A stretch of 55,006 bases of DNA, the filler included, from Sluysia triapertura (taxonomy: Eukaryota), in NCBI GenBank assembly GCA_046118255.1. It is 4 parts of 4 records of this genome, joined end to end, with 100 filler letters (N's around TTAATTAATTAA, not from the genome) between each part and the next. Parts side by side here need not be neighbours in the genome. Positions count along the whole stretch, not along the records: positions 1 to 16,817 come from JBJNIA010197487.1; positions 16,918 to 28,035 come from JBJNIA010188687.1; positions 28,136 to 40,054 come from JBJNIA010145832.1; 1 more part is not named here. One strand, written 5' to 3'. Positions 2,270 to 42,947 of the stretch are shown here, in pieces. The notes under the pieces are model-generated. The model worked only from the letters and a program-made list of their open reading frames with translations, was not told where the DNA came from and did no database searches. The translations under genes and the position numbers were made by a program. Numbering within the stretch: position 1 is the first letter of the stretch; each line of letters begins with the position of its first letter.

Positions 2270-2515
2270 CAATTTAACTCATTAAATTACACTATCAATA
2301 CAGTAACACTGTAGTAATGATATTAAATTTTAATTTAATGATGTTGAGAAGATAGGGAGACTGTTTACCACAAATCCCATTATCTTTAGATAATTACAGT
2401 ATAATGAAATTGAATACAAGCAGAAATTACTGCCGAAATGTAATCAGTAAAATTGGTCGGCTTAGCACCGACTAAAAAGAATGGACAATTTTAATTTCGA
2501 CTTGTCCAATTTCCC
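2270..2515 (+). other. Hairpin cluster (structured leader-like module)
   Basis: Stems TCATTAAATTA/TAATTTAATGA, TTACTG/CAGTAA (2427-2450), TTGGTCGG/CCGACTAA (2453-2475), TGGACAA/TTGTCCA (2482-2508). CACTATCAA..CAGTRACACT is shared with ~10328-10346. Confidence 0.55.
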
Positions 2516-2829
2516 AAATGATCGTAAAACTGATATATAAGCAGTCATATTTTTTCAGAAAATTAGAAACAAAATAACAAGACAAGAATAGGCAATGATA
2601 ATTAAGAAAATGAAAACGTTTAGTTTTAGGGACGTTACTTCTATTCATCTGCGGAAAACGATTAAATTGAGGCTTATTCTTTATCTATCAACTAAAATAA
2701 ACATTTAAGTGGTTATAAGAAAAAGGGTAAGTAACTTTTTTATTCATTACATTTTAGTTAGTACGGGCGTCAATATTTATTTTAGATATCACCACTAATA
2801 TTAATGTTAATAAATAATAATTATTTTTA

Positions 2830-3075
2830 TTTATTTTTTCTTTTACAACAAATATTTGAAATGTGAAATTTTTTTAATCTTTTATTAATTAAGTTAAAAA
2901 ATTTTCATAACACAAAAACATTAAACTATAATTTTAAAACAATTAACGAAATACTAAATTTTTTAATTAATAAACTAGGCTTAAGGCCTGTAAAAAATAA
3001 CAATTTAAGACAAACAACAAAATTTAACGGTTTATTCATACAATAAAACATAGCGAAAAAGCGTATAAAAGTACT
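2830..3075 (-). repeat. Shared 3' module (copies at ~46070-46295 and ~50085-50260)
   Basis: TAAACTAGGCTTAAGGCCTGTAAAAAATAACAATTT versus TAAACTAGGCTTAAAGCCTTTATACAATAACAATTT (~46205), with weaker flanking similarity. Confidence 0.75.
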
Positions 3076-3199
3076 TATACCATTATAATGAAGTTTAATT
3101 GATATTTCTTTTCTATAATCACAATTAAGAAAGGTGTAGTAAAAGAGACCTTTTTAACGTTATCGATTGTTTTTACAGGTTCTCTTTTATTGAATTAGT

Positions 3200-6180: not shown

Positions 6181-6459
6181 TTAGGCCTATATCCAACAAT
6201 ACCTTTTATAAAGGACTAGTTATACTTTTGTGCACTTATCTAATTGTTATGCTGTACAAAATTATTCTATTCTTCCTTAGATAAGGAACTGAATGTAGCT
6301 ATCCTTCCTATAATTTACCCCTACTAACAATTACTTTTACAATTATTATTTGAAAATTATTCTACAAATGTTTGTGTTGAAGTATAAAATGTTTAATGCT
6401 TTTACAAAAATGTTTTATTAGATTATAATGCAAAAAAAGATAGAACAAGTAATATAAAG

Positions 6460-7560
6460 TGTGGTGGCCAACCCATTACGTTAAAAATTTGATATCAACA
6501 AGATATAACAAAATTCCTTTTCAGAACATTTCATAATTGTTAATGCTGGCAAACATTCCATACATAAAATTTCCTAACATTAAAATTATAATTAACATCG
6601 AAATTCATCAATGATATACTTTAAAAAATCATTTCAAAACACTTTAAATCTACAATTTTACAACACCAAAATCACATCTACATTCAAAACCATTAACCCT
6701 CATTAAATTTTATTCAAAACATTTTAAATTCACAAGTTTTCAACATCCAAACTTTGCCTCCATTCAAAACCATCAATGCTCATTTAAAAATTCATTTAAA
6801 ATATTCAAATTCACATTTTCAACATCTAAATCATATTCCACTCAAACCATTAATTTACATTTTAAATTCAATTCAAAACATTTTCAATTCATATTTTTAT
6901 TTCATTTTTGAATGGTTCTTAAAAGATTTATGTACAGATGGAGAAAAATAAGATCTTTTTTGTATAACTTTATTGTTATTATTATTATTATAATTAATAT
7001 TAACATTTTATTGCATTATTAATTATTATTTTCATCATTATTTTAACTATTAATAAGCGATTTATTCATCTCTCGACAGTTAAATTGAATTTAATTAGCC
7101 ACGTCATGTTGGTTGTTCATCGATAACAGCTAGTTGCCAGGATCGAGTGTTTTGTATGTGCTGATTCTGATCTGATTGGACATCCAATAAATACCTCTTC
7201 TTTTATGATCATTGTTATTGTAAGTAGGTGTCCAATCAATCGTCCAACTGGCAGATGCTACAAGCACAGCAAGAATTTATAAAGTTAAATGTGCTACTAG
7301 ATATCAAACAGATTTCAACACCCACTACGACAGAGTACAATCTCATTTAACAAATCTCGGAATCAACTTCAATTTACGGAAGTTACATAGAGAAGTTGTT
7401 GGATCTTGTGGTAACCACAACTGTGTTCCACTCGCCTCCGAAATATACAAAGAATTAAAAGTAATTCTAAATTTTTTATTAAACTTTATTCATTTGAACT
7501 ATTTTTATATCTCATTTATTTTAGAAGAGCGAAAGAAACGATCACGTGGCTTAATCATAA
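6460..7560 (+). mobile_element. Cassette copy A: motif, C/A-rich tract, hairpins, short frame, terminal intron
   Basis: TGTGGTGGCCAACCC 6460-6474; G-poor tract to ~6900; stem TGCCAG/CTGGCA (7135-7253) encloses TGATTGGACATC/GGTGTCCAATCA; open frame VQSIVQLADATSTARIYKVKC...EIYKELK; GT-AG intron 7461-7524. Confidence 0.55.
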
Positions 7561-9247
7561 AAGTCTAGAACATTATGCTGATAAATTTCAAACTTTTAAT
7601 GTGAAAACTAATAAATTAAATTGTTGTATTAGTCCTGATTTACTCGTATTATTTTCTAATTTAAAATTAATTGTTATAATTTTTAATAAACACAATTTTA
7701 GTATTCATTATCAATATTTATTAACTTGTCTCAATAAATTTAAATTAAATTTTCTAAAGAAATTTTCAATTAAATGTAGTAATTCAAGAAATTGTAATTT
7801 ACTCAATAATAAAAAACACAATAATACACCACATAAAGAATGTTATACACAGTAATACACATTTATAATTAAAATCAGAGGGTCTTTACTTATTTTGTGA
7901 AATAAATATAAACTTACCGCGATACATTACCGAAAACAGCAATAAACAAAAACAATATTGTAAAATTGTTTCTTTATATGCTAGTCTTTTTTGAAAAATA
8001 ATTTCTTTTTTGGAAAAATAATACTTCAAAAAGACTTTTTAAATAATTTTAAAGATTGTGATAGCATTTTTTTATTGATTTACAGGGTTGCGATAGCAAT
8101 CTGACATTATATAAGGAGTATTCAGAAAATGTGTTATAATTTGTATTAAAATTTGTAATTATTATTTAACTAGTGAATTATCAAGTTTATTACAATTTTG
8201 AACTGTATTTGATATTATTATTATTATTAATCATGATTTTGAATTATTGAACCTAACTTCTATAGTTATTATAACTAAATTATTTAAAATTTAGACATAA
8301 TCAAAACAGAAGTTTTAAACCCTTCTCGGTCCGATGATTTTATTGGAGTGCTGGTGTCCAGATGTATCTGAATAATTGGAAAACAAACACATTTGTAATA
8401 AATTCCAAATGATTCCTTTGGTAAAATCATTATCTTGTTAACTACATGTTTTCACAATAAATTATAGTATTAATTAGTTAACTTTCTCAGTAGGGCAACT
8501 CAAATAAAGCAATAAGAAATGTTTTTTACCAATTAATTTAATTTTATTATAATTAAAATATGACGTAAACTCAGTTGTAAAACAATTAACATCAACCAAT
8601 TATTTTATTATAAACTTTTATAGTATCCATAGTAAAATACACAAATTAAATTTAACAGTATATTGTTATGTAAGTATTTACTTAGATACATAAAATTAAA
8701 ACCAATTTTATGATATTTTTAGAGAATTTAATTTAAATTTTCGTCAAGACAGATTATTTACTCAAGAATCATTTCAATAAGTAATTAATTTATTAAATTA
8801 CTTTTGTTTCACAATATATTATTCAATAATTCATATAACCAGAAATTACAGTTTGAAGTAATTATTGCATCATTATTACAAGTAATACTAATTATAAATA
8901 TATTTCGAAAAACAGTTAAATTAACGTACCAATTATTACTTACGTTTATAATAAAAATAATACGAACATTCATAAAAATAATAAATTTATTACAATAATT
9001 TTCATTTTTCTGAAAACTAATTTATTCTGTGATTTCTAATTACCATGATTATTTATCTCGAATACTCATAAATCGAATAATATGTTTGTTATTAATTAAA
9101 ATCTTTGCAAAAATAATCAATATTGGTAAAATGTATGTTAATTAAGTTATTGCTTTTGAACCACATGACTTTTATCCGCACAGAACAAACAAGTTAAGTG
9201 ATTCAAAACTGCTATATTATAAATGGTTTCTTTTTCAATTTCGTTCA

Positions 9248-9660
9248 TTGTATACTTGTATTTCATCATCATATGGTTTAGATTTCATTGAATTCACTAA
9301 TTTTTGTTGTAAATACGAATTTGTATTTGGAGTGATTTATTATATAACATTCATTATAATAGAAGTGACTTATTCAAAATTGTCTATTGGTCGGATTATT
9401 AATTTGATTCCAGAAAGTTGCTTTGAAACGTTTACAGCTTTTATAGGTAATGAAGTATCTATTGACAGTGTTATCGTATGTCGAGTATTATGAGTACGTG
9501 AGATACAATTATATATTAATCGTTTTGCTGTGGTTTTATGTCCTAAACTTAACCTAATCAGCAAAATAGATTAACAGAGTTCGCCTACAATATACGGCTT
9601 ATCAGTATTTGTAAGTGCGTGAACGTAATTAATATGCAAAGAAAGATTCAATAGATTGCC
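9248..9660 (+). pseudogene. Possible decayed coding remnant, unidentified
   Basis: The 81-aa ORF continues in frame past single stops (VIVCRVL*VREIQLYINRFAVVLCPKLNL). No motif recognised. Confidence 0.25.
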
Positions 9661-9949
9661 TTACTAGTTAAGTGAGGATTATTGATTTCACTAAAGGAAG
9701 ATTTTATGTTAAAGTTTATGAATTTTCAATTACTCAATGATTCGTATATTAATAAATTATTCGCAATTGTGTAATAAAGTGAAAACAAATGCTATTAAAG
9801 TATATTATATCAAAATATCGACAAATTATTAACACAATAGTTTATGTTAAAAGAACAAAATTATACAGACAAATTATTAATATTGCAATAATAATAATAA
9901 TGATAATAATTTTAATTCCTCATACCTAGTCTAAACAAAGGCTCGGTCT

Positions 9950-10630
9950 AATTATGATTGAAATTTAAAATGATTTAAAATTTAAAAACAATTAAATCGC
10001 ATTTAAAAAAATCATTTAAAACATTTAAGTATCATTTTATAACATTAGAATCACAATTACATCTTTAAATTTTACCTAAAATGTCTAACATGAATTTAAT
10101 ACATCATAAGTTCACAATCTCATCATTTAGCTTTTTAGTCTTTCAAAGATAATAAAGACCTTTAAATAATGTCTTATTTAAACAGAAAGTTCATGTAATT
10201 TTCAAAAAGTTTATGCAATTTAGAATAATAGTAATAATAATATTATTTTTGTTATTGTTACTATCATCATTTTAATTTTTCATTATTTTTAATAATACTT
10301 TTATTAATTTACTAAATTTGCAACTACCACTATCAACAGTGACACTATTAATTCATACTTACAGTTTATTGTCACTATTGATAGTGGTTGTGTTTTCAAC
10401 ATACGTAAAATCTTACTATTACTCATCAGTCGACGGGCATTTTAAATCTTTTGATGTTGCTTTACTAACTGTCGATTGATGACGGTTCTTTGTTAGTGTT
10501 TCTGAGTATTTTGATGATTGCCCAATTAAAATTATGAATATCACTATCTTTTTGTGTTTTGATTGGGCAACCATTCACATTATGAAAAAGATTTCTCATC
10601 ATAATTTCTTGTTGTCATTGTTAGTTTAAA
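9950..10630 (+). repeat. Cassette copy D leader: 5'-truncated C/A-rich tract plus three long hairpins
   Basis: Tract resembles 6615-6740 and the reverse complement of 22380-22510. Hairpins at 10326-10388, 10423-10482 and 10518-10570. Confidence 0.65.
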
Positions 10631-10651
10631 AAACATAATATTAAAACTTAC

Positions 10652-11582
10652 TTTAGAGATTTTTATCTTAAAAATAAAAACAGCAATGGCAATTAACAAT
10701 AAAGAAGACATGCAGCGTAGATTAAAAGCTCATATAGAATTAATAAATTTCTCTTCAAACGTGGAAACACACATTACAATAACTCCAAGAATTAATGATA
10801 AAGAAAATTTTGAAATAACTACTCTACGATTTGATGTTGTAAATGATAGCATCAGAGAACAAGTTGAATTTATAATTGATTGAGAAAATAGATGCCGAAA
10901 GATGTGACTTAAGTATTAATTCTTTATTTTTAGATGAAGATGTATTTGTTTATGAATAACTTGGTTACAGTAAAGATTTAGAAAATAATATTATCTGTTT
11001 TATTGGAATCAGTGCTAATCGAAGTCAAGAACATTATTTAAGAATTTTACGATATTTTAGATTTTCTGGAAGAATCCAATCCATGCGTTGAAGAAATTTT
11101 ATCTGATATCAAACGAAATCCCGATAGTCTAAAAATTATTATCGGTGAATATATTTTGGCAGAATTGAATAAAATTATTAAAGGTAAACACGCATGTGAT
11201 ATATTAAAGCGAATGTTTAAAGTAAATTTGTTTTCTTATATCGATTTAGTAAAAAATAATTTTTAAACTAAGAAAAAACGATTTTGTGAGTTTTATGAAA
11301 ACTTACAGAAAATTGATGCTAAAAGTGCGACGTTTGTAAATTAATTATTGATAATGAAAAGGAAGTAGAAATTATTCGCAAGCGTTTTAAGTTAAACAAT
11401 AATGACTTATTTATTATGCGTTATTGATTTGATAAATGTGATACGAAGGTGACATTGAAAAATTAACAAGATGATTTCATAATATGCGATATTAAAAAAG
11501 AATTCAACATAATCGATTGGAAATATGTCAATTCGAATCGTTGAAATTACTAGGAAGACCAGAAACAATTGATGAATGGTCT
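10652..11582 (+). pseudogene. TRNT1: Intronless decayed copy of the CCA-adding tRNA nucleotidyltransferase
   Basis: Across frameshifts: ETHITITPRINDKENFEITTLRFDV...VEFIID*; DAERCDLSINSLFLD; [12 protein letters not shown]...[19 protein letters not shown]; IGEYILAELNKIIKGKH; ETIDEWS. These match animal class II CCA-enzyme motifs as I recall them ([49 protein letters not shown]). RRD and EDxxR motifs are mutated. Confidence 0.9.
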
Positions 11583-12149
11583 TTAAAAAAGAACAACGTT
11601 CAAACTGATACTACCAAAACTCAATTAATCCGATCAGATCTGGACGATGAGTCACGACACTTCAAGTCTGGTTTGTGTCTAGATGCTGTGACCTAGACGG
11701 AACATGTATAAGGTATGGTAGTAACTTATCCTGGACGTCACGCTTAACGAATCATAATCATCGAATTCAACAACTCGTTTCGTCATTGAGAGAAATATCT
11801 TTGGACAATAACAAATGTCATAACTTAAAAGTAATCATATTTTTTTATTCTAATCTTGTTGATACTCTTATAATCATGTTTTATTATCCCTTAATATTTT
11901 TTAGAAACCTGGAAAGTTTGCCTTTGAAACATGCCAAGGAAATGATGTGCAAGAAACGTATTTCAAAATTAATTGTCAATAAATTTTTAAATTTAAGTTT
12001 TCTTCATTCATTTAATGTTAAAAAAGATTGTGAAATGTACCAAAGAATGTTTAAACTTTAATGCTAATCTAAATATTAAACTAAAAAATGTACGAATTTA
12101 TTTAAATTTAAAAGTTCTAAATCCTAAATTTCAACGTATACCCCAACAC

Positions 12150-12620
12150 TTACATCTTATTGGTCTGGAGATCCACGCCTGAAAGTTTTAGATCAAGCTT
12201 ACGTGTTTTACTAGCACTACGAGAATTAATTTTATGCGTCTTAGCGTCACTTTTCTCATTATTCAGATTACATTTATGTTTACATGACCTTGTCGAGAGT
12301 GTTGTCTTCAGTAACATTAAAATTATTATCATCATCATTATCAACCCAAACTTTCCTAACACTTTTCAAATGTAAGATTCGCAAAATCATCCGTCATTAA
12401 TTGTTCTGCGATGCGTTCATTTTGGAGTCCAAACAGAAAAAATGGTTTGCAACACTTTATTACTTATAGACTCCCGTTTACTTTGTTTTGATTTATTGAG
12501 AAATTTACTGCTTCATAATATGAATGCACATAATACGAAATATTTGTAATATTTTACATTATCATAGTTATCTTTGGGTTCTCTTGATCTGTCATGTGTT
12601 TAATTCAAATCTACCCAATA
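12150..12620 (-). mobile_element. Remnant of an LTR-retrotransposon gag
   Basis: Minus frame FLFGLQNERIAEQLMTDDFANLTFEKC (~12360-12445) resembles the gag FxxGL...I...LL....LT.EKA signature; stops on both sides. Confidence 0.5.
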
Positions 12621-26125: not shown

Positions 26126-26419
26126 GAAACACCTGGAAGACGTCCTGGTGGTCCTCTGGATTCCTCTTCACTGCCAGGTGCAGTATCTTCAGGTTCTGGA
26201 AATTGTGGTGGTCCTCTTGGTACAATTTCGAGTAGTAACAATAGTGGGATGGGAATAATACCTTCAGGATATTTTCCACTTGATATAATTGGTGATGGTT
26301 GCTCTAGTTCCTCTACAAATATGACAGCTTCTACGAAGAATTCGTCGAATACTTCTGGGACAATAGGTAATTCAGGAAGCGGTAAGAAGAGTTTATTGAA
26401 AAACCTGAAGAAAAAATAA
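26126..26419 (+). CDS. Terminal exon encoding a Ser/Gly-rich tail
   Basis: Intron 26048-26125 with GTAAGT donor, CACTAAC branch point and TTTAG acceptor; 97 codons ETPGRRPGGPLDSSSLPG...GKKSLLKNLKKK*. Upstream exon not resolved. Confidence 0.5.
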   Translation, partial: ETPGRRPGGPLDSSSLPGAVSSGSGNCGGPLGTISSSNNSGMGIIPSGYFPLDIIGDGCSSSSTNMTASTKNSSNTSGTIGNSGSGKKSLLKNLKKK

Positions 26420-26749
26420 AATATTATATTGCAATGTGTTACTGACTATTATTAGTATATTATTGTATCTTAATGTTTGTTGTGATAATTAGAATGATTA
26501 CTTTTGTAATTAAGTGATGATTTTTAACATGAAACGTACCACGACCAATCAAATGACCGTTTTTAGTTTTTACTTCAAATAAGTACTATGAAATTGTATT
26601 GTTTGTTCACCATTTTATAATATGACTTTTAATTTTGTATATAAACAAATCAGTTTACATAATTAAAATGATTAACAATGACATTTTTCCTTTAAATATT
26701 TCGGATTTTTGAATTTCTGAAAAACGTTACTTTTACATTAAACTTAACG

Positions 26750-27790
26750 ATGTTTGTCATTCAGAAAATCAATAATCGAGTAGTAAATGCTGACTTATTA
26801 AATGGAATGAGAATTTTTGTCACTGTTGAAGAATAGGCTGAAAAACATCGTGCAATTAACTAAAATGAAAATAAATTGTTAGAAGAAAGGATTTTGGACT
26901 GTACAGCGAAAAGGTCGCGTTTCGAATCCAAGTAAATTCATTATACCAAGTCTAAGAATAATTGAAATTCGTAATAATTGAAACATTTCTTAGTAAAAGG
27001 TACTTTGTTTCGGTATTCAATAAACCTTAAAAAGCATACTTTGGAACAAAAAAGAGTTGTCATTATTGCAGAAGAGTCATGGCGATCTTTAACGATATTC
27101 AGAAGATCGTAAACAGTTAAGATTTCTTAAATTACGTAAGCGACTTAATGCTATTTATTACATCTGAGATGAGTTTTACGCAATAAGGAGACAAATGATA
27201 ATTTATTTTGGCATTTGAAAAGATTTTTGCTTTTTGTGAAGACATTCGTTGGTTGAGGGATAAGCATTTATGAAGTAAGTGAAGAACAACGTTCATAAAA
27301 AATGGTTTAAGTAGGCAGCTGCTATGGTTTTATGCCAAAATGTTTCAATCTATAATTGCAAAATAGTCGCCTAATAGATACGACTTAAATCTGAACGAAG
27401 GCGGACTATTAGGATTTTGTGCTAAAAATTTAAGAATGTCACGTAAGAATATTTATTTAAAAACTAGTCCTTATGTCTACGATGAATGTCATGCAATAAT
27501 GTGTTACAACTGTATCTAATATAATATATTACAACTGTAAAAAAACTAGCCGAATTATGGTCTTGTTTTTCCGAAATATATTGAGCTGGACGGTTGTATA
27601 AATCAAGTGTTATTTAGGATTTTTAACTTTACATTAGCCTTTTTAAGGTCTAATCAAAATAATTTAGTAATAAAAGTGATTTAACGAGTCAACGTTTATT
27701 AACAATATAAATTAAAGACAATAAAAATATAACATACAAAGTAAGTAAAACATATAGTAACGGTATAATTTAACTTAATATTCAGAAAAT
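26750..27790 (+). pseudogene. Decayed Cys-containing coding remnant followed by a 45-nt intron
   Basis: Fragments KAYFGTKKSCHYCRRVMA and YVYDECHAIMCYNC in broken frames; GTAAGT...TTTCAG intron 27741-27785. Confidence 0.3.
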
Positions 27791-27960
27791 TTACTTTTCT
27801 GATATCAAATTTAATTATTTTAATTTTAAATTTAAGTATTTTAAAAATAATATAATTCACTGATTTTAATAGGATTCGGTTATACGAACCTTTTAGGATG
27901 ATTTTAATAAGATTCGATGAAACAATGATTAATTTTTGATTTTAATTAGATTCTTTATAT

Positions 27961-28035
27961 CAGTGGTGTCAAAGTGGCGGCCCGTGTATTTACAAACAAT
28001 ACCAGGATAGGTACACGAATATTCATCCGTTATTT
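27961..28035 (+). mobile_element. hAT/Charlie-like terminus truncated by the scaffold end
   Basis: CAGTGGTGTCAAAGTGGCGGCCCG resembles hAT-Charlie ends (CAG(G/T)GGTGTCCAAA..GCGGCCCG). Confidence 0.5.
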
Positions 28036-28135
28036 NNNNNNNNNNNNNNNNNNNNNNNNNNNNNNNNNNNNNNNNNNNNTTAATTAATTAANNNNNNNNN
28101 NNNNNNNNNNNNNNNNNNNNNNNNNNNNNNNNNNN
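28036..28135. other. Artificial scaffold linker
   Basis: N44-TTAATTAATTAA-N44. Confidence 0.97.
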
Positions 28136-30159
28136 TTATATAAGTAAAAAACATTTATATTTTATGGATCGCAATGAGGAATCTTTTTTAAATTCTCTTC
28201 AATCATAATGATACTGTTGCTATATTACGAATTTTGAGTTTAAGCTTTTAAAATTTTCTTTATTCTCAATTCGTAAAACTTAAATATAAAATCAAAAAAT
28301 TCAAATAAAACTTTAACAACTTAACAAAATAAAAATAAACTTATAATAAAATGCAACTTAGTAGATCCATAAAACTTAAATATCGAAGTATGTGAAACTC
28401 AAATTTAAAGTTAGAAAATGTATCAAATAAGTAAAACCTAAAAACAACTTATACGAATTTTATAATTCGAAACTTATAATGAATCAAACTTATAAAACCG
28501 TAATATAAATACAAATTGAACTTATAAATATATCCAACTTTATACTCAAACACTATTCAATATTCAAATTCACTATAAAATTCTTATAAATGTATCTAAA
28601 ACTTCAAAATGCAATAAATGTACATTTTGAGATACTGAAATACAAATCAAAATATAGAACTTAATGAAATAAGTAATTCGAAACTTTTAAAATCAAATCT
28701 TAATCTTAACATCAAAATGAAATCATATTAAATATCAAATCTTGATCAATCTTTGTATCAAGGTAAATCGAAGTAATATAAAAACTCGATTTCTAAATCG
28801 CAAACTTTATATCAACTTAACAATGTGAAATATGTAATATGATTTATGTCAGAATTGTCACGTTTAAAATTTAATAAATTTAAATTTGATTAAAGTAATT
28901 TCCAAAAAAGATATGATGATAATAATAATTTTGCAATAATAATATTAAAATAATAAGTATAAAATAATAATAATTATTATAATTATAATGTTAAGATATC
29001 TGATGCATCTAGAAGATAAAGTACAATTCTAATTAACAATGTAATAATAAAAAAAATAATAATGATAATACTAATAATGTATCAAATGTATTTAGTACAT
29101 AAAGTACAATTCTAAGTTCTACAATAATAATAATCATCATCATAATGTTGTGCGTAATTATTTGAACTTTGTAATTATTATTGATAAATAATGTGTATTA
29201 TTTTATGATTAAATTTTATTTTGAATATTTGAATTGGAACATTTATATTTGAATTTTATTTTTTGGAAATATTTGAAGATTTTTATTTTTGGAAATATGT
29301 GAATTAAAGTAAGAAATTATATATTAATTAATTAAACTAACGTAATAAATAAAATTTAATGTTTTGTTTTAATAAATTAAGCTTTAGTGTTTTGTTTTAA
29401 TCTGAAGGTCAGATTAAAAGCAATTATAAATATACTTGCATTTTATAAAACAATTCACAATTTTTTAACATAATTTTGTTATTCGTGGTGGACAGTTTTG
29501 GAGCCAGTTCACTGTTTAATTCCAAATAAACTCTTTTTCGTGTTACGTTAGTTTCATTATTATAAGTTACGATATTAATAATAATATCAACGTAAAATCA
29601 CACGTAAAATCTTTTATTAAATATTTGGATCTTATAATAGATCCTACGAAAAATCATTTACTAAATTTTTTACTATATTATTTTTAAATTTTAACCCTTA
29701 TTGAGTTAAAACACGTAAATTAATATTATTGTACTATACGTTTTATTATTACTTCGTAATTGTTTCATAATAAATTATTAAAAGCGAGTTTTATTCAATT
29801 TATTTAGCTATAAATTATAAAATCAGTAGAAGGAAGTGTTTTCAACAATTGAAATTTAAATCCAATTATGTAAAATCTTTTTAGATTCCATTTCAAAGAA
29901 TCTACGTAAAATAATTCAAATTATGTTTGGTAAAATCTCATAAAATTTCTTAGTATTAAAACTTACCTCCAGACATTTTTAATATAAATTAGCATCACTA
30001 GCAAATTCCTTTGAGCATTTCTTTTAATCTTACTCAAAGATCCTTTTATTCGTAAACCCAACGGCTTGTCCTAACCGGTAAGCCCAGTACGTTGGTGAAT
30101 TCAAGTTAAAATTATCTCTTTATTCTATTACTTTACTTTTAAATTTCTCACAATAATAA

Positions 30160-30322
30160 TAATGTTGGGATTGACCAACTGTAGATCAGGAGATGAATGA
30201 GAAACATATACATTTAGTAGATGAAGTACAATTCTAAGTTCTGATAATAGAAATAATGTTATACTTCATAAAATGGACTGACCGGGGATCGAACGAGGGA
30301 CCTCTCGCTGCGCAGTTCGATG
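30160..30322 (-). mobile_element. tRNA-derived SINE-like remnant (3' half of a tRNA-Ala-like head plus body)
   Basis: Minus strand GCGAGAGGTCCCTCGTTCGATCCCCGGTCAGTCCA contains a B-box/T-arm. The adjacent body motif AAGTACAATTCTAA(GTTCT) recurs at ~29019 and ~29102. No 5' half or A box. Confidence 0.6.
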
Positions 30323-30371
30323 ATTAAAAACATGTATTAATATAATAGTTTTCGACTCTTCTTTCTTCTAT

Positions 30372-31750
30372 TCAGGGACCTTGTAGGACATGGTCGCGGT
30401 ATGCGTTATTCGAGGACTCCACAGCTAGTCGTGCACACTGGTGCGAGGGTCTTGATTTCGGTCTTGTGGAAGCCAAGTGCCTTGAAAAACTTGTCATTCT
30501 CGGAATCCCATGACACCAAGGCTCCAACGACACCAAGAGGCACCTTGCACTTCAGTTGTTCATGCAGTTTACCCTGACGATCAGCATACTTCGCAATAGT
30601 GATAGTTCGGATTATTTCGAAGGTTTTTTTCAGGACCATGGGAGTCATGATATCAAACAAGAACAGTTGGGATGAGGAAGTACCCATGGCCTGTATGTCA
30701 GGTCGCCGAGTGTCACTGATAATTGGTGTAGGTGAATCCTTATTCCGGTTATTTAGTTTTTGACTTCGAGATAAGTTCGGTGTATTTGATGTTCTTGTTT
30801 AGTAAATCATGAATTCTGTACCGTTTATAGTCACTAAATTGAACGCCAAGATATAGAGTTTCGTTTTCGCTGGTGACACATGAATCGGAGTATTTTCGAT
30901 GAGTATGGAATATCTCGAGTCCCGGGATGTTATAGTTGAAGAAGCATTTCGTAGGCAGGAATATGAGGTTGGCTGATTTCGCATTTTGGACAACTCCGTT
31001 AACAATTTGTTGTAGTCCATCGAAGGTAGTGCCGATGAGGGCTATATCGTCAGCACATGCTACGTATGGAAGAAATTTCTGGTCATCAGTTATTTTGATG
31101 TAGTCATCATCCGTGAACTGGAGGACAGAATAGTGTCATGGACAATGGACATCCTTGTTTCACTCCATACATGATCGGTACGGCTTTAGTTATAATACCA
31201 TTGAATTTGTAGGTGATACTGCTGCCTTTATATAGGTCCTTCAGGATGTTCAGGGTTTACTGTTGGAGTCCCATACTTGAGAGTGTATGCCATATTAGAT
31301 TGCATTCGCCAAGTCGAGAAAGACAATGTGTAATTCGATTTTGCGCGATTTATCGACTCCACTATTTCTTTAAGTGAGTGGAGTAGGAAGTTGTGCTCGG
31401 TGCATCCATCTGATTGGAGAAGAGCAGCTTGGTGTGTACTAATGAGGTTGCCACTTTTGATCCATGCCAGTAAGCGGTCATTCAAGATCTTGGCAAAGAC
31501 TTTATAATTGCAGTCCACTATAGGTATATGTCTCTGTGAAGCGACGTCTTGCGCCAAGTCATATTTATTGGGTTTGATTATCAGTAGAGTGTTGTAGTTC
31601 TTCCAAGCAGTCAGGAATTTTTGGTTGATCAAGATTCTGTTAAAAGTTGACCAGTGGGATCGGAATTTCTTAAATTCTCAAATGTTATGACTTGGTTGTG
31701 GCCTGATGCTGAGTGGTGAGGATCTCAATCTCCAGGATGGTATCAGTACT
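30372..31750 (-). mobile_element. Decayed, internally deleted RLE-type non-LTR retrotransposon (NeSL/Utopia-like)
   Basis: RT motifs QAALLQSDGCTEHNFLL, FLDLANA, YGVKQGCPLS, YVACADDIAL. Endonuclease motifs RRPDI...LFDIMTP...AKYAD, VVGALVSWDSENDKFFKALG, SSNNAYRDH. Frameshifts present; zinc knuckle not seen. Confidence 0.85.
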
Positions 31751-32039
31751 CATATAGTGTATGAATGTTGGCAGGTGAACTATCAGCCCCGTTTAACAAT
31801 TTTGTTTTATTATAGTCAATATTTATGCATGGCACTTTAGGCCTTTGTCTCAACAAACAACAACAAAACAGTAGCAACGATTAATAATGCAAATGAGAAG
31901 ATCCATGCTTTAAGGAATTTTTGAATTTATTTTATAATTAAAAATAATATTATTTTGGGAAATTTTATTAAAATAGTTTTTGTTTGTATTGTTTTTTTGG
32001 AAATTTATATTTGATTATTATTACGAAATAATCGTGAAT

Positions 32040-32290
32040 AATAATTAATATTTTTCTTAGTGTTTGTTGCGTCACTCGTGGTTTCATTAGATAGATTGTT
32101 ATATCCTTGATACTATTATAAACGTTGTTACTCATTTTTAGTATTGTCTAATGGAGATTTATAATAATAATAATAATAATAACAATAATAATAATTTGAT
32201 TTTTGTTTAACGAGTAAATTATTGTGTTGTTATTGATTTGATTTTCAATGGCTTAATTTTGGGGTGAATAATTATTATTATCAAAGTTTG
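32040..32290 (-). repeat. Inverted copy of 44360-44600
   Basis: Reverse complement shares AAGCYATTG.AAATCAAATCAA...ACACAATAATTTAC...TTAAACAAAAATCAAA and GAGTGACGCAACA.ACACTAA. Confidence 0.8.
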
Positions 32291-32401
32291 AGAATAACTG
32301 AAAATTTATATTTAATATAGTGACCACTTAAATTATTGCGATTTTATTAAAGTTAATTAATTTGATATTGATTTAGCGTAATTAATAATTTTCAAAGACG
32401 C

Positions 32402-32447
<46 letters not shown>

Positions 32448-35400
32448 TGGAGATCAGTGTTATTCAAGATAGATATTTGATTTAAATTAGATGCCTTATT
32501 CTTATCGTAAGTTCTCTATGATACTGGACTTACTCACTGAAGGACCAGCATATAGACTTTCAGCTTAAGAAAAATAAGATTGGAGGTATATGTTTAGACT
32601 TATTCTTAATTTTACGTATTTCTTAATTCTAGATGCTTACAGCCACTAAGTTTTCTTCATCTTTTATAATTTAAAGAATAAATGGAATATAGTTATGATT
32701 CGAAGGATGCAGAATATTAATTTCAAGTGCTATTTTATTTTCCAGAAATTATCAAAATGTTAAAATGTTTAATAATATCCAAATCTTTCAAAAAAGGCAT
32801 AAGAAACGATATGATCAATTTATTAATATAAACACAAAAATCAATGATATCAGTTTAATTATATATTGATATATAAAAAATATATCCTGATATATTATAT
32901 ACTGATTATATAAAAAAATTATATACTGATACATATGACAAAATGTAAAATCAAACTTATATAGGAATACAAATTTCAATCGTCAAATGCGTTTATGTAA
33001 TATCAAATATACAAAAGTTATCTTAAATAAAAATATCACACAGAATACTAAATATTAATTTACACAATATTTAATAATATTAACTTTATAATTATAATAT
33101 TAAACTATCATAATTTATGAAGGAAAATTTATTTTGTAAATAAATATTACTAAGTTATAATTTAAAGTGTAGTTTATGCAATTAATTTAAATTTTTTCTT
33201 AAAATTATCAGAAGACTAATGAATAGTTAAGGTAAACTATTAATGTGAATTTCCAGAGATTAAATTGATAAATAAAGTGTGATTTCTTTTCTTCAAATAA
33301 AATATATCTTCCAACGTATAGACAATTTAATTTTCTCTTCCAAATATAAACAATACAACAAATATAAACTATAGTTTTTTATTTTTTTATTATGAATAAA
33401 ATATAGTTTTCTCCAATTGTAAAATATATCTTCTTAAAATATGAAATATAATTTTCTTTCAAATATAAACTAAAATTTTTAATATACTTGTAAAATATTA
33501 TTCAAAATTTCAACATTAAATACCTTTTGATATAGAACAAAGTACAGGTTCATGAATGAAAATGTCCTAATTTAGACATAAATGATGATAAGTCTTACAT
33601 AGTTAAACTCTGGAAACACAATTACAGAATAAACAAACATCACAATTCATAATAAAACCATAAAAAATATTTTATACTTGATAATGTCTGCATAATATTA
33701 ACACTTTGTAGTTATCTTAATAATACATTAATCATGTATTTATGTATGTTTACACAATTCAATAGTTATGCATAATAATTAAATACATTTTGTCGCATGA
33801 ATTGATTTAGTCTAAAAATAGATTGTATATTATATGTGGTTTGATGTGATTAAATTTTAATAATAATACAAATGATAATAATAATAAAAATGATAATAAG
33901 ATTAATGATAATAATAATGATAATGATAATAATATTAATGATAATAAGAATAATACTCATGATTGTTTAAACTGTAACATAATGCTCAATTTTAATCTAA
34001 GATTATTTTTCAAAATTAATGAAATACAATAAAAATTTAGTACTAATTATAATTTATACATAAATACATAATGATTAAAAAGTACATAGAAATAATAATT
34101 TTTACTTTAAGATAATGATGCCTCTACAGTATATTCAATTATAATAATAGTAATTTTATAATAATTACTTAAGAGCATCGTCTTAGTAATTATCTATTGT
34201 TGATTTTAAAGGCTAAGTTAACCAAGCCTTATTAAGGTCTTGCAACAATATTAAGAGTGTAAGTCAAATTTAAACTTTCCTTATATGGTACAGTTTATAA
34301 ATCCTATATAAAGACGAATTGCTTATGCATGGAAATACTATGAGAACTGTCTCTGAAGAGATGATCTGCAAAGTTATCGTGTCAAAAGCGATCGAAAAAT
34401 TTATGTCCAAATATGATTATTTGAATTCTTTTTATGCTGTTTTCTCTGTCGCGAAATTGTATATTTATATTTTTTACTTCATTAAAACAAATTAAGTAAG
34501 AAAAACAAATTATTTTAGAATAAAATATCCAATAAGAATTGAATAAAAATTTTCTATACCTTTTTATAGTAAAAAATTTTTAAAAGAAAATTTTTATATT
34601 GATTTAATAATTTATTAAATTATTGTAATATTTAAATCAAAAGTAATCAAATAATAATATAGTTAATACATTATTTACATAAAATATTATATAAATTGTT
34701 CATTTATTTATTTATAATTGATCACAAAAGTCCATAAAAAATAATCATAACAGTCATATCATAAAAAGTCACCCTCACAGCAATATAAATTAATTTGAAT
34801 TTTTATTTTTTCAAAATTTGTTTCTGTAGAGGAATGATCATTCCGAATCAAAAGAAAATAAGCATAAAAATACAACTTAGCTTTAATTACATCATAGTTG
34901 ATAAAAAACAAACAAGTATTTCATCTAAAAATTGAAGAAAATATTCAATTATCATGTGCATAATTTGTTGTTGATTTGTACAATTAATTATAAGACTTGT
35001 TTATTGTTATACAAATGATTAATGCAGTATCAAACTAGAATCATAATAGATTCAGACAAACAGTTATGTGAACGATCAATGCTTATATAACCCATAACCC
35101 TGCCAAATTACGATGATCGGTTTGTTCACATGAAATATGATTGTAAAGATTTGGCCATTTATCTCGATAACATTTTCATGTTTAAAATGTATCAATAATT
35201 TAATTTTATGATGAATTCTTTGACTCTATGATTGATGTACAAAAAGTAAAGTCTTCCATAATAATGATTCAGAAGTTATAAAATAAAACTGGATATATTA
35301 AACATGGACTGGTGAATAACATTTAAAATAGTAATAATACCTTGCCCACCATGCGAATTAATGCGGATCTCGAAGGTTTCCCGAAACGTACAATTCATCC

Positions 35401-35576
35401 AACAGATGTCAAGTTCTTTGTGTCTAGACCTAATGAATTTTTAGCAATGAAGTTATAGTCGATAGTAAGACTTAATTTTCATGAACATATTACTAAGCCT
35501 ATTATGTTGCATTCTTCTACATTTATGATTTTATTAGTGGTCTTATTGTCTTTTATATCATTTCCTGATACGTACA

Positions 35577-36900
35577 TGTAGTGACCAACCTTAATAACCA
35601 CTAAAATTTTAATAAAAACTAATATCCTTTTCTTCTCTTTTCATTGTACTTAAACAGACACACATCTATCTATTACATACCTTTTAAAACTAATCTATAT
35701 CCACAATTTTACAACATCCAAATTATATTAACCATTTCACCAGAAACATTACTCGACAATCACAACAATCCAACAACAAACGCATTTGAAATAATATATT
35801 CAATACTTTCGAACCCTTTATTTTACACTACACTTTAATAATTAATACCTAATATTTAATAATATTTATTCATTAGTTTATTTGCTTAACCCAAATCACA
35901 ATCACAAACTTACAATACATGAACCATAATCACATCTAATACCATTTCACAACACCAATAAATCTACTCGAAACATATAAAATACCTACTTCATATCTTC
36001 GAATCAATCACAACATTTAAAACTCACTATGCATCTAAGCATAATCATCAACAACACAGTACAACAAAAACATCAAATAAATGAATCACACAAAACATTA
36101 TACAATAACATCTTAAATATACCAAGATTTATATTGTAATTGTCCTTTTAGATTCATTAAATTACAATCTTCTCAATAAGCCTTTCATCCACGATATTTC
36201 AATACATAAAATTTGTTTTCAAATATGAACTTCAATCACTATCGAAGAACCTATTCTAACATTCTTTATTTTATTTCAAGACTCAAATCAATTATTATAT
36301 CTTCATAGGTTAATTATACTTACCAATTCACTCGAAACAATTATTGCTCAGATGCTTATTCCAAAGTACATTTTTTATTCATTTTAATGTCTTACAGACC
36401 TTCAAGAAATTAAAGAAAATCGTATACAGTTTTGAAGAATTCAATTTTATATAATGAAATAACAACGATAACTCGAGCATAGTACACCCTGTTATCGTTG
36501 CTGTTTTATATTTTATATTTTATTTTTTATGTGTAAGAAGTATATAAAAGAAAGAAAAGATCGTATTATATTATTTTCAAAGAATTTTATGCATTATCTT
36601 TGATTTTCTTTTTATTAATAATAATAACAATATTATTGTTATTATTATTATTATCAATTATTAAGTTAATTATTGTACAGATTTTATAATCATTAAAAAC
36701 TTGTTACTACCACCACCAGTGTTGACACTACTCATTACAATTTTCATTAAAGTGTCAACACTGATAATGGTCAATCATCAGCGTTTTTGGTTTATACATC
36801 TAAATTTGTATATTCTGCCTGTCATCCAATCAGGTAGAATTTCACTAATTATATATCACAATCCCTGATTGGATGAGGAAAGGCAAGCTAAATAAAGAAT
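35577..36900 (+). mobile_element. Cassette copy C leader
   Basis: TGTAGTGACCAACCT 35577-35591; ~800-bp G-poor tract; perfect stems CAACGATAAC/GTTATCGTTG (36463-36500), CAGTGTTGACACT/AGTGTCAACACTG (36717-36763), TCATCCAATCAGG/CCTGATTGGATGA (36822-36876) inside TGCCT/AGGCA. Confidence 0.65.
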
Positions 36901-36922
36901 TACACAATTTATTTGTACAAAA

Positions 36923-38032
36923 ATGATTAAAAACAAGACTTTCCTTAAATTTCATACTATACATCTCATACTTAAATCTCATACTATACATCGTTCCTAC
37001 ACTCAATCAGAACTGGTCAATTATCATCGAAATTTGCAACGTAATCAAATGATTTCAAATATTGTTATACGAAGTTATGAATTATTAGATTTAATGTCTC
37101 ATATGAAACAATAGACTTTTAATGAATTTCAGAACCTACAGAATGCACGTACTTGCAATTTTGCTACTTCGGATTGCCGTTTGAAATATTTACTTAGCCT
37201 GTATGAAGATATACAGATATGTTACAATATTTTACATTTATTATCGAATTTTATACATAACAATTTAAATATTCAAGCTTATTTATTTTATTGTCAATTT
37301 AACCGAAAAGATTATTTACAAAATTTTCATTTATTGTCGTCACAAATGATTTTAGTAAGTCGACGAGTTATATCGCAATTCTCTTTAGTATTGTCACACT
37401 CAGAATTCTCGCTCCCTTTACGTCAAGTTCGTTGGCAAATACTATTTAGTATCGAAAATTTCCAAATATACATCGATGTTCATTCAGTAGAAAAGTCACA
37501 AAAATTCAATCGTGATCACTGTTCATAAGAATTATTTAGTTTTGATTTTGTTAATTATTCATTGGATCATCAAATTATTAGCATACAATTAATGTCGTTC
37601 AGTACTATGTTATATAAATTTACGTTGGAAGGATTAATTTTGTTTACTAATGATGCCAATCGTTATTTAATTAAAATAAAATATTTTAATGATTCGTTGA
37701 GTAATCGGTGGAGTCAATATATAACATTGATGGACAAATATGTCGTAAAAGAAATTAGTGATAAATTATACGATTCCGAAAGAATGTTATCATTTGCAAA
37801 ATATTCACATTATAGAGCTATCGAAATGTATAAAGATAAGGTAGTTATATCTTCGTCGCTTTCAGATAAAGAATGCAGTTATTTAATAGAGCAATTAGTT
37901 AACAATATGATCACATTAGTTTTTAATTGATGGCGAATGCTAAGAGATCATTATCTTATCCGGCAATCATTTTCTTCGGGTGAACAAATACGGTTGACAT
38001 CCACCAAAACCTTAAATATTGGAAGATACTCG
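36923..38032 (+). pseudogene. ~370-codon single frame with 3 stops; gamma-tubulin complex component (GCP4-like) C-terminal domain
   Basis: ORFs at 36923, 37181, 37562 and 37937 share one frame. VSRRVISQ...LRQVRWQILFSIENFQIYIDVHSVE...FSFDFVNYSLDHQIISIQLMSF resembles GCP4 SVRRVQ...LRNHMAFLVDNLQYYLQVDVLE...RDFESIRLAHDHFLSNLLAQSF as recalled. Intron 38033-38087 follows. Confidence 0.5.
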
Positions 38033-38479
38033 GTAAATTTTTATTATTCGTGTATAATTAATAATTATAATATCTTTTATTTTTTAGATTGTAATTATAA
38101 AGCTAGGATTCGCGAACTACAATGTGGTGCAATGACAATCATTATGTCAGCAAATTTATCATTACAAGGAAATATAAAATATATGTTTAGAATTCATTTT
38201 ATATTCAATAAAATCTTTTTCTTTATTTCTTATAAGGTTTTTATTACTCCTTCAAAAAGTTAAATTATTATTACTTCAAATCCAAGTTATGAACTATAAT
38301 GTAGAGAATAATAGGAACAATTTTACAAATATGTTTTAGGTCAATTGATAACAAACGTAACTATATTTGCCTTATATTAATAACTTCCTTCTCTGCAACA
38401 TCAAAACTCGAATATATATCGTAAGAGATTAATCTATAATAAAAACTTTATTATTAAATTTAAAATTAAACATATTATT

Positions 38480-40955: not shown

Positions 40956-42465
40956 TATCGAAATCAAGTGGTGATAATTCGTAATAATGTTACAGAAATT
41001 GTTCCGTTTTCTAATTGTGATTATGGATTTGTAAATAAATTTGATGAAATTCAAACTTTGCAATCATTTGAAGTTTTGCGTCTTTTTTCGATTACTCTTC
41101 AAAGGGTTCTCATATCATCTGTATTACCGTACGTTTTAAATTTTATTTATCGATCAAATTCCGGTCTCCTTTTACTTGCTGTTTGTGTGCACATTTATTA
41201 CAAGGTGGCTCAATATCCAGGCAACTTGGATCATGGAAAGTTGTGGGGCTATTCAAGTATTCATTTAGTTGTACCGTGATTGGAATTTTTTCATTTGATA
41301 ATTGAATAGTTTCAGAAGTATTTATTATTTCTCTTAATTATCTTAATTATTATTTCTCTTACTGCGTCATTGTTGATTCAGATCAATGTTGGGCTTTAAT
41401 TGTTCACTTATAAGTAGCGTATTTCGACATAGTTCACATAACTGGTCCATTATTTATTTATTTCGGATCTATTTTGAAGATTGTATTAGTTTATCATACT
41501 TTGTTATGTCTTCTCTCGCACTGTTTCTCGAGTGTGCTAGAGTAGCACTCGAAATGATGTGATATCAGTTGGTATGGTAGTTACTGGGTGGTTGGAAATA
41601 CGAAGAGATATATAATCGATTTCAAATAAGTACACTGATTTTTCAGAGACTTCCGAAAAAAGATATTCGATGCCGAGAGGAAATAAGATATTGAGGTAGT
41701 CTTTGGAAGTCTGTAGCAATATCAAGTTATTTATTACATCGTAACATCTGACATTTCTATTTAATTATTTCCATTTAGTTATTTGTGATCACGCAATTGG
41801 TTCGAGTACTGGTGCACTAAACAACACTTTGTTGACAGTAGTAATCACAATCCATGTTTTATCTTTATTTATTCGCCGTCTTCGCACACACACTGTAACG
41901 CTACTCTATGCCTTGCTTATTTTCGTATTGCATTGGTGATGCTTGGATTTGTTGAAGCTTATTTAGTTACATTGAAACATTAATTTTGGTGAATAAATCT
42001 ATTTTTGAAATTGGTGTTGTATAAGGGACCGCTAGACGAAATGTGAGATTTGTGGTGTACGATAATTGTTGAATCTGTAGCGAAATGAATATGACACAGC
42101 AATTCAGCAAAATCGTAAAAAATAAAAGGTTTACCAATTGTTGAGAATACGAAGGAAGTACAAGATTGTATAATTAAACAGGTATTAATTCCTCTTTAGA
42201 TATTTAAGTACTCAAAAGCGTTTACAATTAGAAAAAATCGCTTCAAAATTTAAGTTGATTAAATGATAAAATGTTATTTTAAATTGAGATGTGTTTATTG
42301 AAACAAAGAAACGTATAACCTAAACTTAATTAGCCATAGTAGAGTCTTATAAGACAGAACTTGACAAGATTGCTTGATCTTGGTTTGATTAATAATGTCG
42401 TTTTCGGGTCAAATGTTAGGCTAACTTATTAATTTTATTCACGCATTCTCAACTTCAGGGTAATA

Positions 42466-42947
42466 TAGGGTTGTGCAAGTCTCTAATCATCGAAATAAGT
42501 TTTTAACATATGAGTTGATAAAAGCATTAGAAGTATGAAAGAATGTATTTAATATTAAATAAAATTTTCTCTTTCGATTCATGTTCTCATATTTCTGTAG
42601 AATTCTTAACACTAATGAATAATTTCATAGTAATAATTATAAATCAATCGAGGTTTTAAGTGTATTAGCTTGATTCACCCGATTTGAATTTGATTGGAGA
42701 ATTCTTGAGTAATTAGAGCAGAATATAATTCTATAACGATCGTCGATTTTGATCTTACAACCGAACAGTCGTTATATCACATTTTATTGAATAAATAATA
42801 ATTATTCAATTTAGGAATATAAGAACATCCTAGAAAGAGCAAGAATATGAGAAAATTTTATTTCATATTAAATGTATGTTGTCACATTGTTAACTTTTAC
42901 ATATTAAATAAAATTACTTGATGGGTATATAGACTTGCACAACCCTG
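42466..42947. mobile_element. 482-bp MITE, Tc1/mariner-type ends
   Basis: Perfect TIR AGGGTTGTGCAAGTCT / AGACTTGCACAACCCT flanked by TA on both sides; internal IR AATATTAAATAAAATTTTCTC / GAGAAAATTTTATTTCATATT. Confidence 0.85.

What the first reader, a model, noticed from the sequence alone, without database searches (positions are those of the whole stretch)
6460..38090. Dispersed gene-capture cassette family: same leader architecture, different cargo in every copy
Seen: on three separate scaffolds the motif TGTRGTGRCCAACC (6460+, 22745-, 35577+) starts a 450-800-bp G-poor C/A-rich tract, then an ATT/T-rich stretch, then a hairpin cluster, then a coding cargo. A 5'-truncated copy starts at ~9950 and a related hairpin cluster sits at 2270. 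Cargos differ: a short unknown frame (A), TRNT1 (D), an intact RING ORF (B) and a GCP4-like frame (C). Established: LTR elements, Pack-MULEs and Helitrons can capture host genes; LTRs typically begin TG; planarian giant gypsy (Burro) elements are, as I recall, strand-skewed and carry captured domains. Inference: this is a non-autonomous mobile vector that swaps host-derived cargo behind a conserved structured leader. I do not recognise it as a described family.
Basis: partly seen in the sequence, partly recalled or inferred. Interest (0 to 1): 0.9.

Follow-up and report, generated by a model that had tools for sequence, protein, structure and literature searches.

The report
Gene-carrying LTR-like repeats in a flatworm
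These are ends of a high-copy jumping-gene family in a parasitic-flatworm-like genome; different sub-families carry different, now broken genes, including dozens of copies of the tRNA CCA-adding enzyme gene, which is a new example of a known kind of gene capture.

Summary
The repeat is real; two cargo labels are wrong. The motif occurs 3 times (0 of 100 shuffles), each heading a G-poor tract. Homology links B-A-D-C in a chain; C joins mainly through one 21-bp hairpin shared with D. Copy A is a closed 1,374-bp unit: TAAAG|TGTGGTG...CACCACA|TAAAG (7-bp inverted ends, 5-bp target duplication), and its start matches the published CsRN1 LTR end motif TGTGGYG. Contigs of one public run show the tract, cargo A and the TRNT1 copy are all multi-copy (up to 83, 21 and 39 contigs at single sites; 2-6 just left of the motif). 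So cargo is fixed per sub-family and amplified, not swapped copy by copy. TRNT1 is confirmed but broken; the RING frame has an internal stop and belongs to an orphan family; the GCP4 label found no support. Hairpin clusters are strong only in C and D. Best reading (0.55): long LTR-type ends of Gypsy-like elements carrying captured or accessory genes, A being solo-LTR-like. No primer-binding site, polypurine tract, second LTR, autonomous partner or RNA evidence was found. A TG..CA DNA transposon remains possible.

The parts
6460..7833 (+). Copy A: closed 1,374-bp unit, TGTGGTG...CACCACA, flanked by the 5-bp duplication TAAAG (6455-6459, 7834-7838); solo-LTR-like
   Evidence: chance 0/1000 strict, 4/300 liberal; contig depth stays 335-400 up to 7845
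6460..6940 (+). A leader: motif plus G-poor tract with an internal 80-bp tandem repeat (6633-6898); high copy
   Evidence: summed depth 4,000-10,600, up to 83 contigs at one site
6941..7330 (+). A T-rich stretch and weak hairpins (best 7168-7242, with inverted CCAAT/ATTGG words), TATA-like TTTATAAA near 7277
   Evidence: promoter reading is inference from sequence
7224..7560 (+). Cargo A: unknown frame with a putative GT-AG intron 7461-7524; multi-copy; inside the closed unit
   Evidence: no Pfam, no atlas hit; intron from sequence only; 14-21 contigs at single sites
9950..10290 (+). Copy D: leader tract without the motif, then ATT stretch
   Evidence: A-D z 5-8; contigs join A tract 6696-6879 to D tract 10030-10044
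10323..10575 (.). D hairpin cluster: hp1 10323-10391, hp2 10423-10482, hp3 10513-10575, each pre-miRNA sized
   Evidence: z -7.5, -4.2, -3.7 on the better strand; no Rfam family
10662..11610 (+). Broken TRNT1 (CCA-adding enzyme) copy, frameshifts and stops, no intron over residues 55-232 of the human chain; multi-copy
   Evidence: PDB E 1e-5, 5e-14, 0.08; Pfam PF12627 4e-6; summed depth 1,450-2,180 over 10756-11725, up to 39 contigs per site
22140..22745 (-). Copy B leader: motif plus G-poor tract; homology with A starts exactly at the motif under strict scoring
21601..21717 (-). B single long irregular rod hairpin
   Evidence: z -5.6
20979..21455 (-). Cargo B: RING-finger gene of an orphan family with a basic C-terminal motif; in-frame stop at 21105-21107
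   Evidence: Pfam zf-RING_2 6e-8; family members P0128, P0137, P0162, P0206, P0207
35577..36380 (+). Copy C leader: motif plus G-poor tract, not alignable to A/B beyond the motif
36448..36885 (.). C hairpins: 36448-36502, hp1 36709-36771 (homologue of D hp1), hp2 36816-36885
   Evidence: C-D z 4.7, 0/200
36923..38260 (+). Cargo C: 377-codon frame with 3 stops, then a putative intron 38033-38087 and a further exon; unidentified, not GCP4 by any test
2270..2520 (.). Hairpin-rich stretch; kinship to the family unproven
16918..17009 (-). Further TGTAGTG start followed by a G-poor tract cut by the scaffold end; possible extra copy
   Evidence: 2 G, 19 C in 77 nt; no significant alignment to A, B, C

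Best explanation
The motif is the integrase-recognition end of long LTR-type repeats of Gypsy-like elements in a neodermatan-type flatworm genome. The G-poor tract, T-rich stretch and hairpins are the promoter/RNA-signal part of that repeat. Sub-families picked up different genes (a host TRNT1, probably from mRNA by template switching; a RING gene and two unknown spliced frames that may be old accessory genes or read-through captures), were amplified with them, and are now decaying. Copy A is a solo-LTR-like remnant that holds its cargo inside. Shown: repeat end, target duplication of A, multi-copy cargo, TRNT1 identity. Inferred: LTR class, promoter role, capture route, RNA role of the hairpins. 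If the introns are real and the route is retrotransposition, the element's genomic RNA would be the G-rich strand and the cargo antisense; hairpin 1 also pairs best on that strand.
For: TG...CA ends with 7-bp inverted repeat and exact 5-bp duplication in A. Start equals the CsRN1 LTR 5' motif TGTGGYG in PMC3601003 Table 3 (passages). A-B homology begins at the motif. Contigs per site fall from 45-83 inside the tract to 2-6 just left of it; single-copy contigs have depth 14-20 while summed depth is 335-400 over cargo A and 1,450-2,180 over TRNT1. TRNT1 is colinear without intron over 178 residues/533 nt. C/D hairpin 1: 21 pairs, 3 compensatory and 4 G-U changes, 97.6% paired on the minus strand. 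A decayed Gypsy pol lies in the same scaffold. LTR-mediated capture is documented in animals (PMC5131818, abstract) and extra domains in planarian Burro elements (PMC6431247, passages).
Against: No primer-binding site, polypurine tract or second LTR next to A, B or C. Right ends of B, C, D not found; the candidate for C is at chance level (39/300 and 104/300). A loose all-against-all search gave 5 other 'closed' pairs besides A, so such pairs arise by chance. CsRn1-clade elements have 4-bp duplications and 330-380-bp LTRs, unlike A. Putative sense-strand introns in cargo A and C fit DNA-level capture at least as well. The covariation rests on 2 sequences (58/500 shuffles reach it), hairpins 2 and 3 of D fold better on the other strand, and G-to-A bias alone could give the strand asymmetry. 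The 5-mer TGTRG is not enriched before G-poor tracts (5 of 132 vs 2.3% background). Summed contig depth is not a copy number and the run may be the assembly's own sample.
Confidence: 0.55

Rival explanations
1. A non-autonomous cut-and-paste DNA transposon with very short TG..CA ends (Ginger2/Tdd-like or Pack-type) that captures genomic gene pieces with their introns; A is then a whole element, not a solo LTR.
For: A is one closed unit with cargo inside and no internal direct repeat other than the 80-bp array; putative introns in cargo A and C; Ginger ends also read TGTNR and TDD-4/5 make 5-bp duplications (PMC2836005, passages).
Against: Described Ginger elements have 40-270-bp inverted repeats; A has 7 bp. 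No transposase seen in the units. TRNT1 copy has no intron over 533 nt.
Confidence: 0.2
2. No shared cassette: a high-copy skewed repeat has inserted or nested beside separately amplified pseudogenes in a repeat-dense genome, and the order tract-ATT-hairpin-gene is partly pattern-seeking in AT-rich DNA.
For: C tract does not align to A or B; A, B hairpins are unrelated to C, D; other G-poor tracts of unrelated sequence occur at 45001, 49581, 1341, 48461; D's hairpin region has lower summed depth (400-900) than TRNT1 (1,450-2,180) and no single contig spans leader and TRNT1 from another locus.
Against: Cargo A lies inside the target-duplication-bounded unit and is multi-copy; C and D share about 200 nt leading into a structure-conserved hairpin directly before their cargo; depth stays far above single copy without a break from D tract to 11900.
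Confidence: 0.17
3. A host gene family: pri-miRNA or promoter/outron modules duplicated by segmental duplication in front of genes.
For: Hairpins of pre-miRNA size with 13-21-bp stems; best Rfam E-value hits are miRNA models, all far below threshold; G-poor tracts also lie upstream of other gene-like frames.
Against: Target duplication and TG..CA ends, very high contig multiplicity, and every cargo tested is broken.
Confidence: 0.08

Closest known systems
CsRN1-clade Gypsy LTRs (PMC3601003 passages; PMC2582038 passages)
   Same: 5' end motif TGTGGYG; flatworm hosts; a decayed Gypsy pol that looks CsRn1-like (clade call from my recall of its motifs, not from a tree) sits beside A
   Different: 5-bp not 4-bp duplication; unit 1,374 bp versus 330-380 bp; no tRNA-Trp PBS after an LTR end; cargo inside
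Burro giant Gypsy elements of planarians (PMC6431247 passages)
   Same: Flatworm LTR elements with extra domains, among them a RING-type motif
LTR-mediated retrocopies in animals (PMC5131818 abstract)
   Same: Intronless host-gene copy fused behind LTR-type sequence
   Different: Here one copy type is amplified to dozens of variants; the downstream LTR part was not found; other cargos appear spliced
ta-TRIM and solo LTRs of taeniid tapeworms (PMC4558846 passages)
   Same: Neodermatan non-autonomous LTR family whose solo LTRs drive spliced read-through transcripts into neighbours
   Different: ta-TRIMs have paired LTRs, a Leu PBS and mostly 4-bp duplications; neighbours are not amplified cargo
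Retand/Grande plant elements with antisense extra ORFs (PMC11963269 passages); orchid Gypsy AlkB (PMC9289625 abstract)
   Same: Extra genes fixed in LTR-element lineages, some antisense, one an RNA-modifying enzyme
   Different: Plant lineages; ORFs lie between pol and 3' LTR and are intact
Ginger1/Ginger2-Tdd DNA transposons (PMC2836005 passages)
   Same: TGT start, 4-5-bp duplication, introns allowed
   Different: Long inverted repeats and an integrase-like transposase, neither seen here
Schistosoma W-elements (PMC8490949 passages)
   Same: Flatworm repeats with predicted miRNA-like hairpins
   Different: Satellite-like, some with hammerhead ribozymes; no hammerhead found here

Membership tests
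LTR retrotransposon (solo LTR or LTR end) | TG...CA ends with short inverted repeat | tested here: met
   Copy A only: 7-bp TGTGGTG/CACCACA; B, C have the left end only
LTR retrotransposon (solo LTR or LTR end) | 4-6-bp target site duplication | tested here: met
   A: TAAAG, 0/1000 strict, 4/300 liberal; C candidate at chance level; B none
LTR retrotransposon (solo LTR or LTR end) | Two direct LTR copies around an internal region | not testable with these tools
   No genome held; none inside the 4.5-10 kb available downstream
LTR retrotransposon (solo LTR or LTR end) | PBS after the 5' LTR, PPT before the 3' LTR | tested here: inconclusive
   None convincing at A, B, C; absence is expected for solo LTRs and outer ends; no host tRNA set available (one search found none in the window)
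LTR retrotransposon (solo LTR or LTR end) | Linked gag-pol | tested here: inconclusive
   Decayed pol at 3650-5780 minus abuts A, but A's own duplication shows a separate insertion
CsRn1 clade | 5' motif TGTGGYG | tested here: met
   A, B exact; C TGTAGTG
CsRn1 clade | 4-bp target duplication | tested here: not met
   A has 5 bp versus 4 bp in PMC2582038
CsRn1 clade | tRNA-Trp PBS and CHCC gag linked to the LTR | tested here: inconclusive
   No PBS after A's right end. The motif itself contains TGGTGACC, close to the published PBS start TGGTGA(G/C)CCCG, but the high-copy side is downstream, not upstream
Ginger1/Ginger2-Tdd DNA transposon | 40-270-bp terminal inverted repeats | tested here: not met
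   7 bp in A; no inverted copy of the first 13 nt downstream of A, B or C
Ginger1/Ginger2-Tdd DNA transposon | Integrase-like transposase | tested here: inconclusive
   None in cargo frames; non-autonomous copies need none
Helitron | TC...CTRR ends, no target duplication (recalled) | tested here: not met
   A has TG..CA ends and a 5-bp duplication
Pack-MULE | Long inverted repeats and 8-11-bp duplication (recalled) | tested here: not met
microRNA cluster | Pre-miRNA-sized stable hairpins | tested here: met
   C and D
microRNA cluster | Precise mature/star small-RNA reads | not testable with these tools
   No RNA run listed
Retrozyme / Penelope-like | Hammerhead ribozyme | tested here: not met
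   No Rfam hit; 3 loose core matches, none with a credible fold context in the hairpin clusters

The most novel reading that the evidence does not exclude
A lineage of LTR-type elements in a parasitic flatworm uses its terminal repeat as a modular expression cassette: a structure-conserved cluster of miRNA-like hairpins plus a captured gene, and one sub-family kept a working CCA-adding enzyme because it repairs the 3' CCA end of the tRNA primer (or marks RNAs) for the element's own replication. Other TG-headed leaders in the same genome (for example the one before a broken CLASP copy) would make this a general gene-amplifying system.
Probability: 0.12. Interest if true: 0.85.

Novelty: new variant of a known kind. 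Interest (0 to 1): 0.5.

Why it matters
It shows mobile elements mass-producing copies of host genes in a parasitic-flatworm-type genome, which affects gene counts and annotation there. A transposon-borne CCA-adding enzyme did not turn up in two full-text searches (open-access library only), and it has an obvious possible link to tRNA-primed reverse transcription. If the hairpins yield small RNAs, they bear on how neodermatans, which lack the canonical PIWI pathway (PMC4558846 abstract start), and their transposons interact. If no intact copy exists, it is a passenger pseudogene burst of modest interest.

Tried and rejected
Own genome not held. Rfam: no hit at gathering score; 9 weak hits at E up to 10. 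Hammerhead scan negative. No tRNA genes in the window. Motif scan of metagenome contigs: 16 hits, all 16 without the G-poor tract, read as chance; viral contigs 0. RING family in viral contigs: 9 loci matching the RING fingers only, not the family. RING family search: 5 members, 2 found anew, all unnamed. Cargo C: no Pfam, PDB or homologue support for GCP4; no language-model or fold result was obtained for it. Cargo A: no atlas hit. Bulk six-frame Pfam scan of 33 frames gave 0 hits and missed an RT found earlier, so it is uninformative; the other half of the window was not scanned that way. No RNA holder listed, which says nothing on expression. Earlier findings of this scan: three look-ups, nothing shown. 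The Burro primary paper was not available. CACTA reading of the motif's reverse strand and a PBS reading of the motif were rejected because the high-copy side is downstream. The 490-aa ORF at 50073-51542: no Pfam, atlas uninformative, no phage match, model pLDDT 30. Supplements of the cited papers were not read; LTR end alignments there could bear on the clade call.
Full report
Setting. The window is four pieces joined by N-TTAATTAATTAA-N spacers, about 75% A+T. No whole genome is held. The EZH2 SET exon at 53594-53831 is 79-82% identical to cestode, trematode and monogenean proteins, the top identities among the 120 listed of 2,137 hits apart from one unnamed protein, and shares their IYEY and KIYD residues and a cestode-like tail. 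I read the host as a neodermatan-type flatworm; no tree was built.

Observation. The 14-mer occurs three times and never in 100 shuffles; allowing 4 mismatches to a 15-mer adds one site without a skewed tract. Each site heads a tract with 4-6% G. Local alignment against 60 shuffles per method for 66 pairs gave A-B z 11-16, A-D 5-8, B-D 3-4 and C-A 2-3, C-B and C-D near 0-1. C joins the family through about 200 nt shared with D that ends in hairpin 1 (67% identity; hairpin regions z 4.7, 0 of 200). So the family is a chain B-A-D-C, not four alignable leaders.

Hairpins. C and D each have three pre-miRNA-sized hairpins (z -3.7 to -7.5 on the better strand); A's two tested hairpins are weak (z -2.3, -0.4); B has one long rod (z -5.6); 2270 folds modestly. 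Hairpin 1 of C and D aligns without gaps; on the minus strand 41 of 42 cells pair, with 3 compensatory and 4 one-sided G-U changes, but with two sequences 58 of 500 shuffles reach this. D's hairpins 2 and 3 and B's rod prefer the cargo strand. A model of hairpin 1 finds only C and D. Rfam has no matching family and no hammerhead was found.

Cargo. D carries a broken TRNT1: three pieces match human residues 55-102, 106-167 and 177-232 (E 1e-5, 5e-14, 0.08), 178 residues over 533 nt, hence no intron there; a fourth piece had no relevant PDB or Pfam hit. The RING frame in B is interrupted by a stop at 21105-21107; the frame continues into a basic motif shared with five unnamed 116-157-aa proteins from metagenome or run assemblies. 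No named host orthologue appeared, so it may be an element-borne family rather than a fresh capture. Cargo C is a 377-codon frame with 3 stops and no support for GCP4 in Pfam, the PDB or 720 homologue candidates. Cargo A is unidentified. Cargo A and C have putative GT-AG introns judged from sequence alone.

Copy number. One public run holds the region (it may be the assembly's own sample). Laid on 6100-11900 at 80% likeness, contigs identical to the window have depth 14-20, while summed depth is 4,000-10,600 on A's tract, 335-400 on cargo A, 77 on A's hairpins, 3,450 on D's tract, 400-900 on D's hairpins and 1,450-2,180 on TRNT1; single variant sites are seen in up to 83, 21, 47 and 39 contigs, against 2-6 just left of the motif (only 40 of 829 variant rows and 8 of 5,293 pieces were shown). 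Summed depth is not a copy number, but dozens of distinct TRNT1 variants are present, 2,011 of 4,653 laid records being under 90% alike. A 1,019-nt contig from another locus aligns from 6459 onward.

Ends. Copy A reads TAAAG|TGTGGTG...CACCACA|TAAAG over 6460-7833. The exact 12-mer arose in 0 of 1,000 simulations of the downstream 10 kb, a liberal version in 4 of 300; a loose all-against-all scan found 5 other pairs, with 3-6-bp inverted ends. Depth stays level up to the predicted right end. The start equals the CsRN1 LTR motif TGTGGYG (PMC3601003, passages), but that clade has 4-bp duplications and short LTRs (PMC2582038, passages). No PBS, PPT, second LTR or long inverted repeat was found for A, B or C, and C's candidate right end is at chance level. 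Of 15 TGTRGYG sites, A, B, C and 49571 head G-poor tracts, as does 17009 up to the scaffold end; the shorter TGTRG shows no enrichment (5 of 132).

Mechanism. Most likely these are long LTR-type ends of Gypsy-like elements; sub-families acquired different genes and amplified them, and A is a solo-LTR-like remnant. TRNT1 fits capture of an mRNA by template switching as described for animals (PMC5131818, abstract); spliced cargo needs either antisense orientation to the genomic RNA, as for extra ORFs of plant Retand elements (PMC11963269, passages), or DNA-level capture, the main rival (Ginger ends, PMC2836005, passages). Whether the TRNT1 was ever useful to the element is open: the window copy is broken, and other contigs show many indels.

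Comparison and novelty. Gene-bearing LTR elements are known from planarians (PMC6431247, passages) and orchids (PMC9289625, abstract); solo LTRs driving neighbours from tapeworms (PMC4558846, passages); Saci2 and CsRn1 elements dominate tapeworm LTR sets (PMC12471100, passages); hairpin-bearing repeats from Schistosoma (PMC8490949, passages). Searches for a transposon-borne CCA-adding enzyme and for LTR-encoded miRNA clusters in flatworms returned no such paper; these cover the open-access library only. I file it as a new variant of a known kind, not a member of CsRn1 or Ginger, with interest 0.5.

Noticed in passing
window 48683 (minus) to 46592; second copy at 1-83 (minus): A different leader starting TGTAGGG with a G-poor tract (two copies 92% alike over 83 nt) lies upstream, same strand, of a CLASP C-terminal-domain copy with two in-frame stops (PDB E 1e-10): the same leader-then-broken-host-gene layout with unrelated sequence.
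   Followed up: partly
window 44241-45511, 48860-50072, 31924-32408 (minus): Another dispersed repeat of about 1.2 kb with a G-poor second half; two copies 69-75% alike, both ending in TCA; one has TGTGGTG at the start of its tract (49571).
   Followed up: partly
window 50073-51542 (minus): Uninterrupted 490-codon frame of higher GC, no Pfam, atlas, phage or fold assignment; its stop coincides with the end of the repeat at 50072.
   Followed up: partly
window 42076-52042: TGTAGC...GCTACA pair with a 5-bp flank match GAATC, 9,967 bp apart, enclosing the two repeats above, the CLASP copy and the 490-aa frame; may be chance.
   Followed up: no
window 3240-6200 (minus): Decayed Gypsy pol (RT, RNase H, integrase) whose gag end is cut short close to copy A.
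   Followed up: partly
window 30400-31750 (minus) and 30270-30330: Decayed non-LTR-type reverse transcriptase (weak RVT_1) followed by a short stretch resembling a tRNA-derived SINE (from sequence).
   Followed up: no
window 18724-18815 and 20239-20328: 92-bp inverted arms, 91% alike, 1.4 kb apart, enclosing decayed gene-like sequence; MITE or Pack-like candidate.
   Followed up: no
window 1712-1956, 20551-20755, 24269-24370, 43205-43281; 2808-3088 with 46037-46300; 7985-8081 with 16261-16353: Three more dispersed repeat families; the last is very high copy (summed depth 11,300 at 7846-8039).
   Followed up: no
window 11600-12300 (plus): Spliced-looking decayed gene pieces follow TRNT1, and depth is still 924 at 11726-11900, so unit D may carry more than one gene.
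   Followed up: no
window 15114-15299: Five copies of a 36-bp tandem repeat, 97% alike.
   Followed up: no
window 52862-53831 (minus): Apparently intact EZH2 SET-domain exons, used to place the host.
   Followed up: yes
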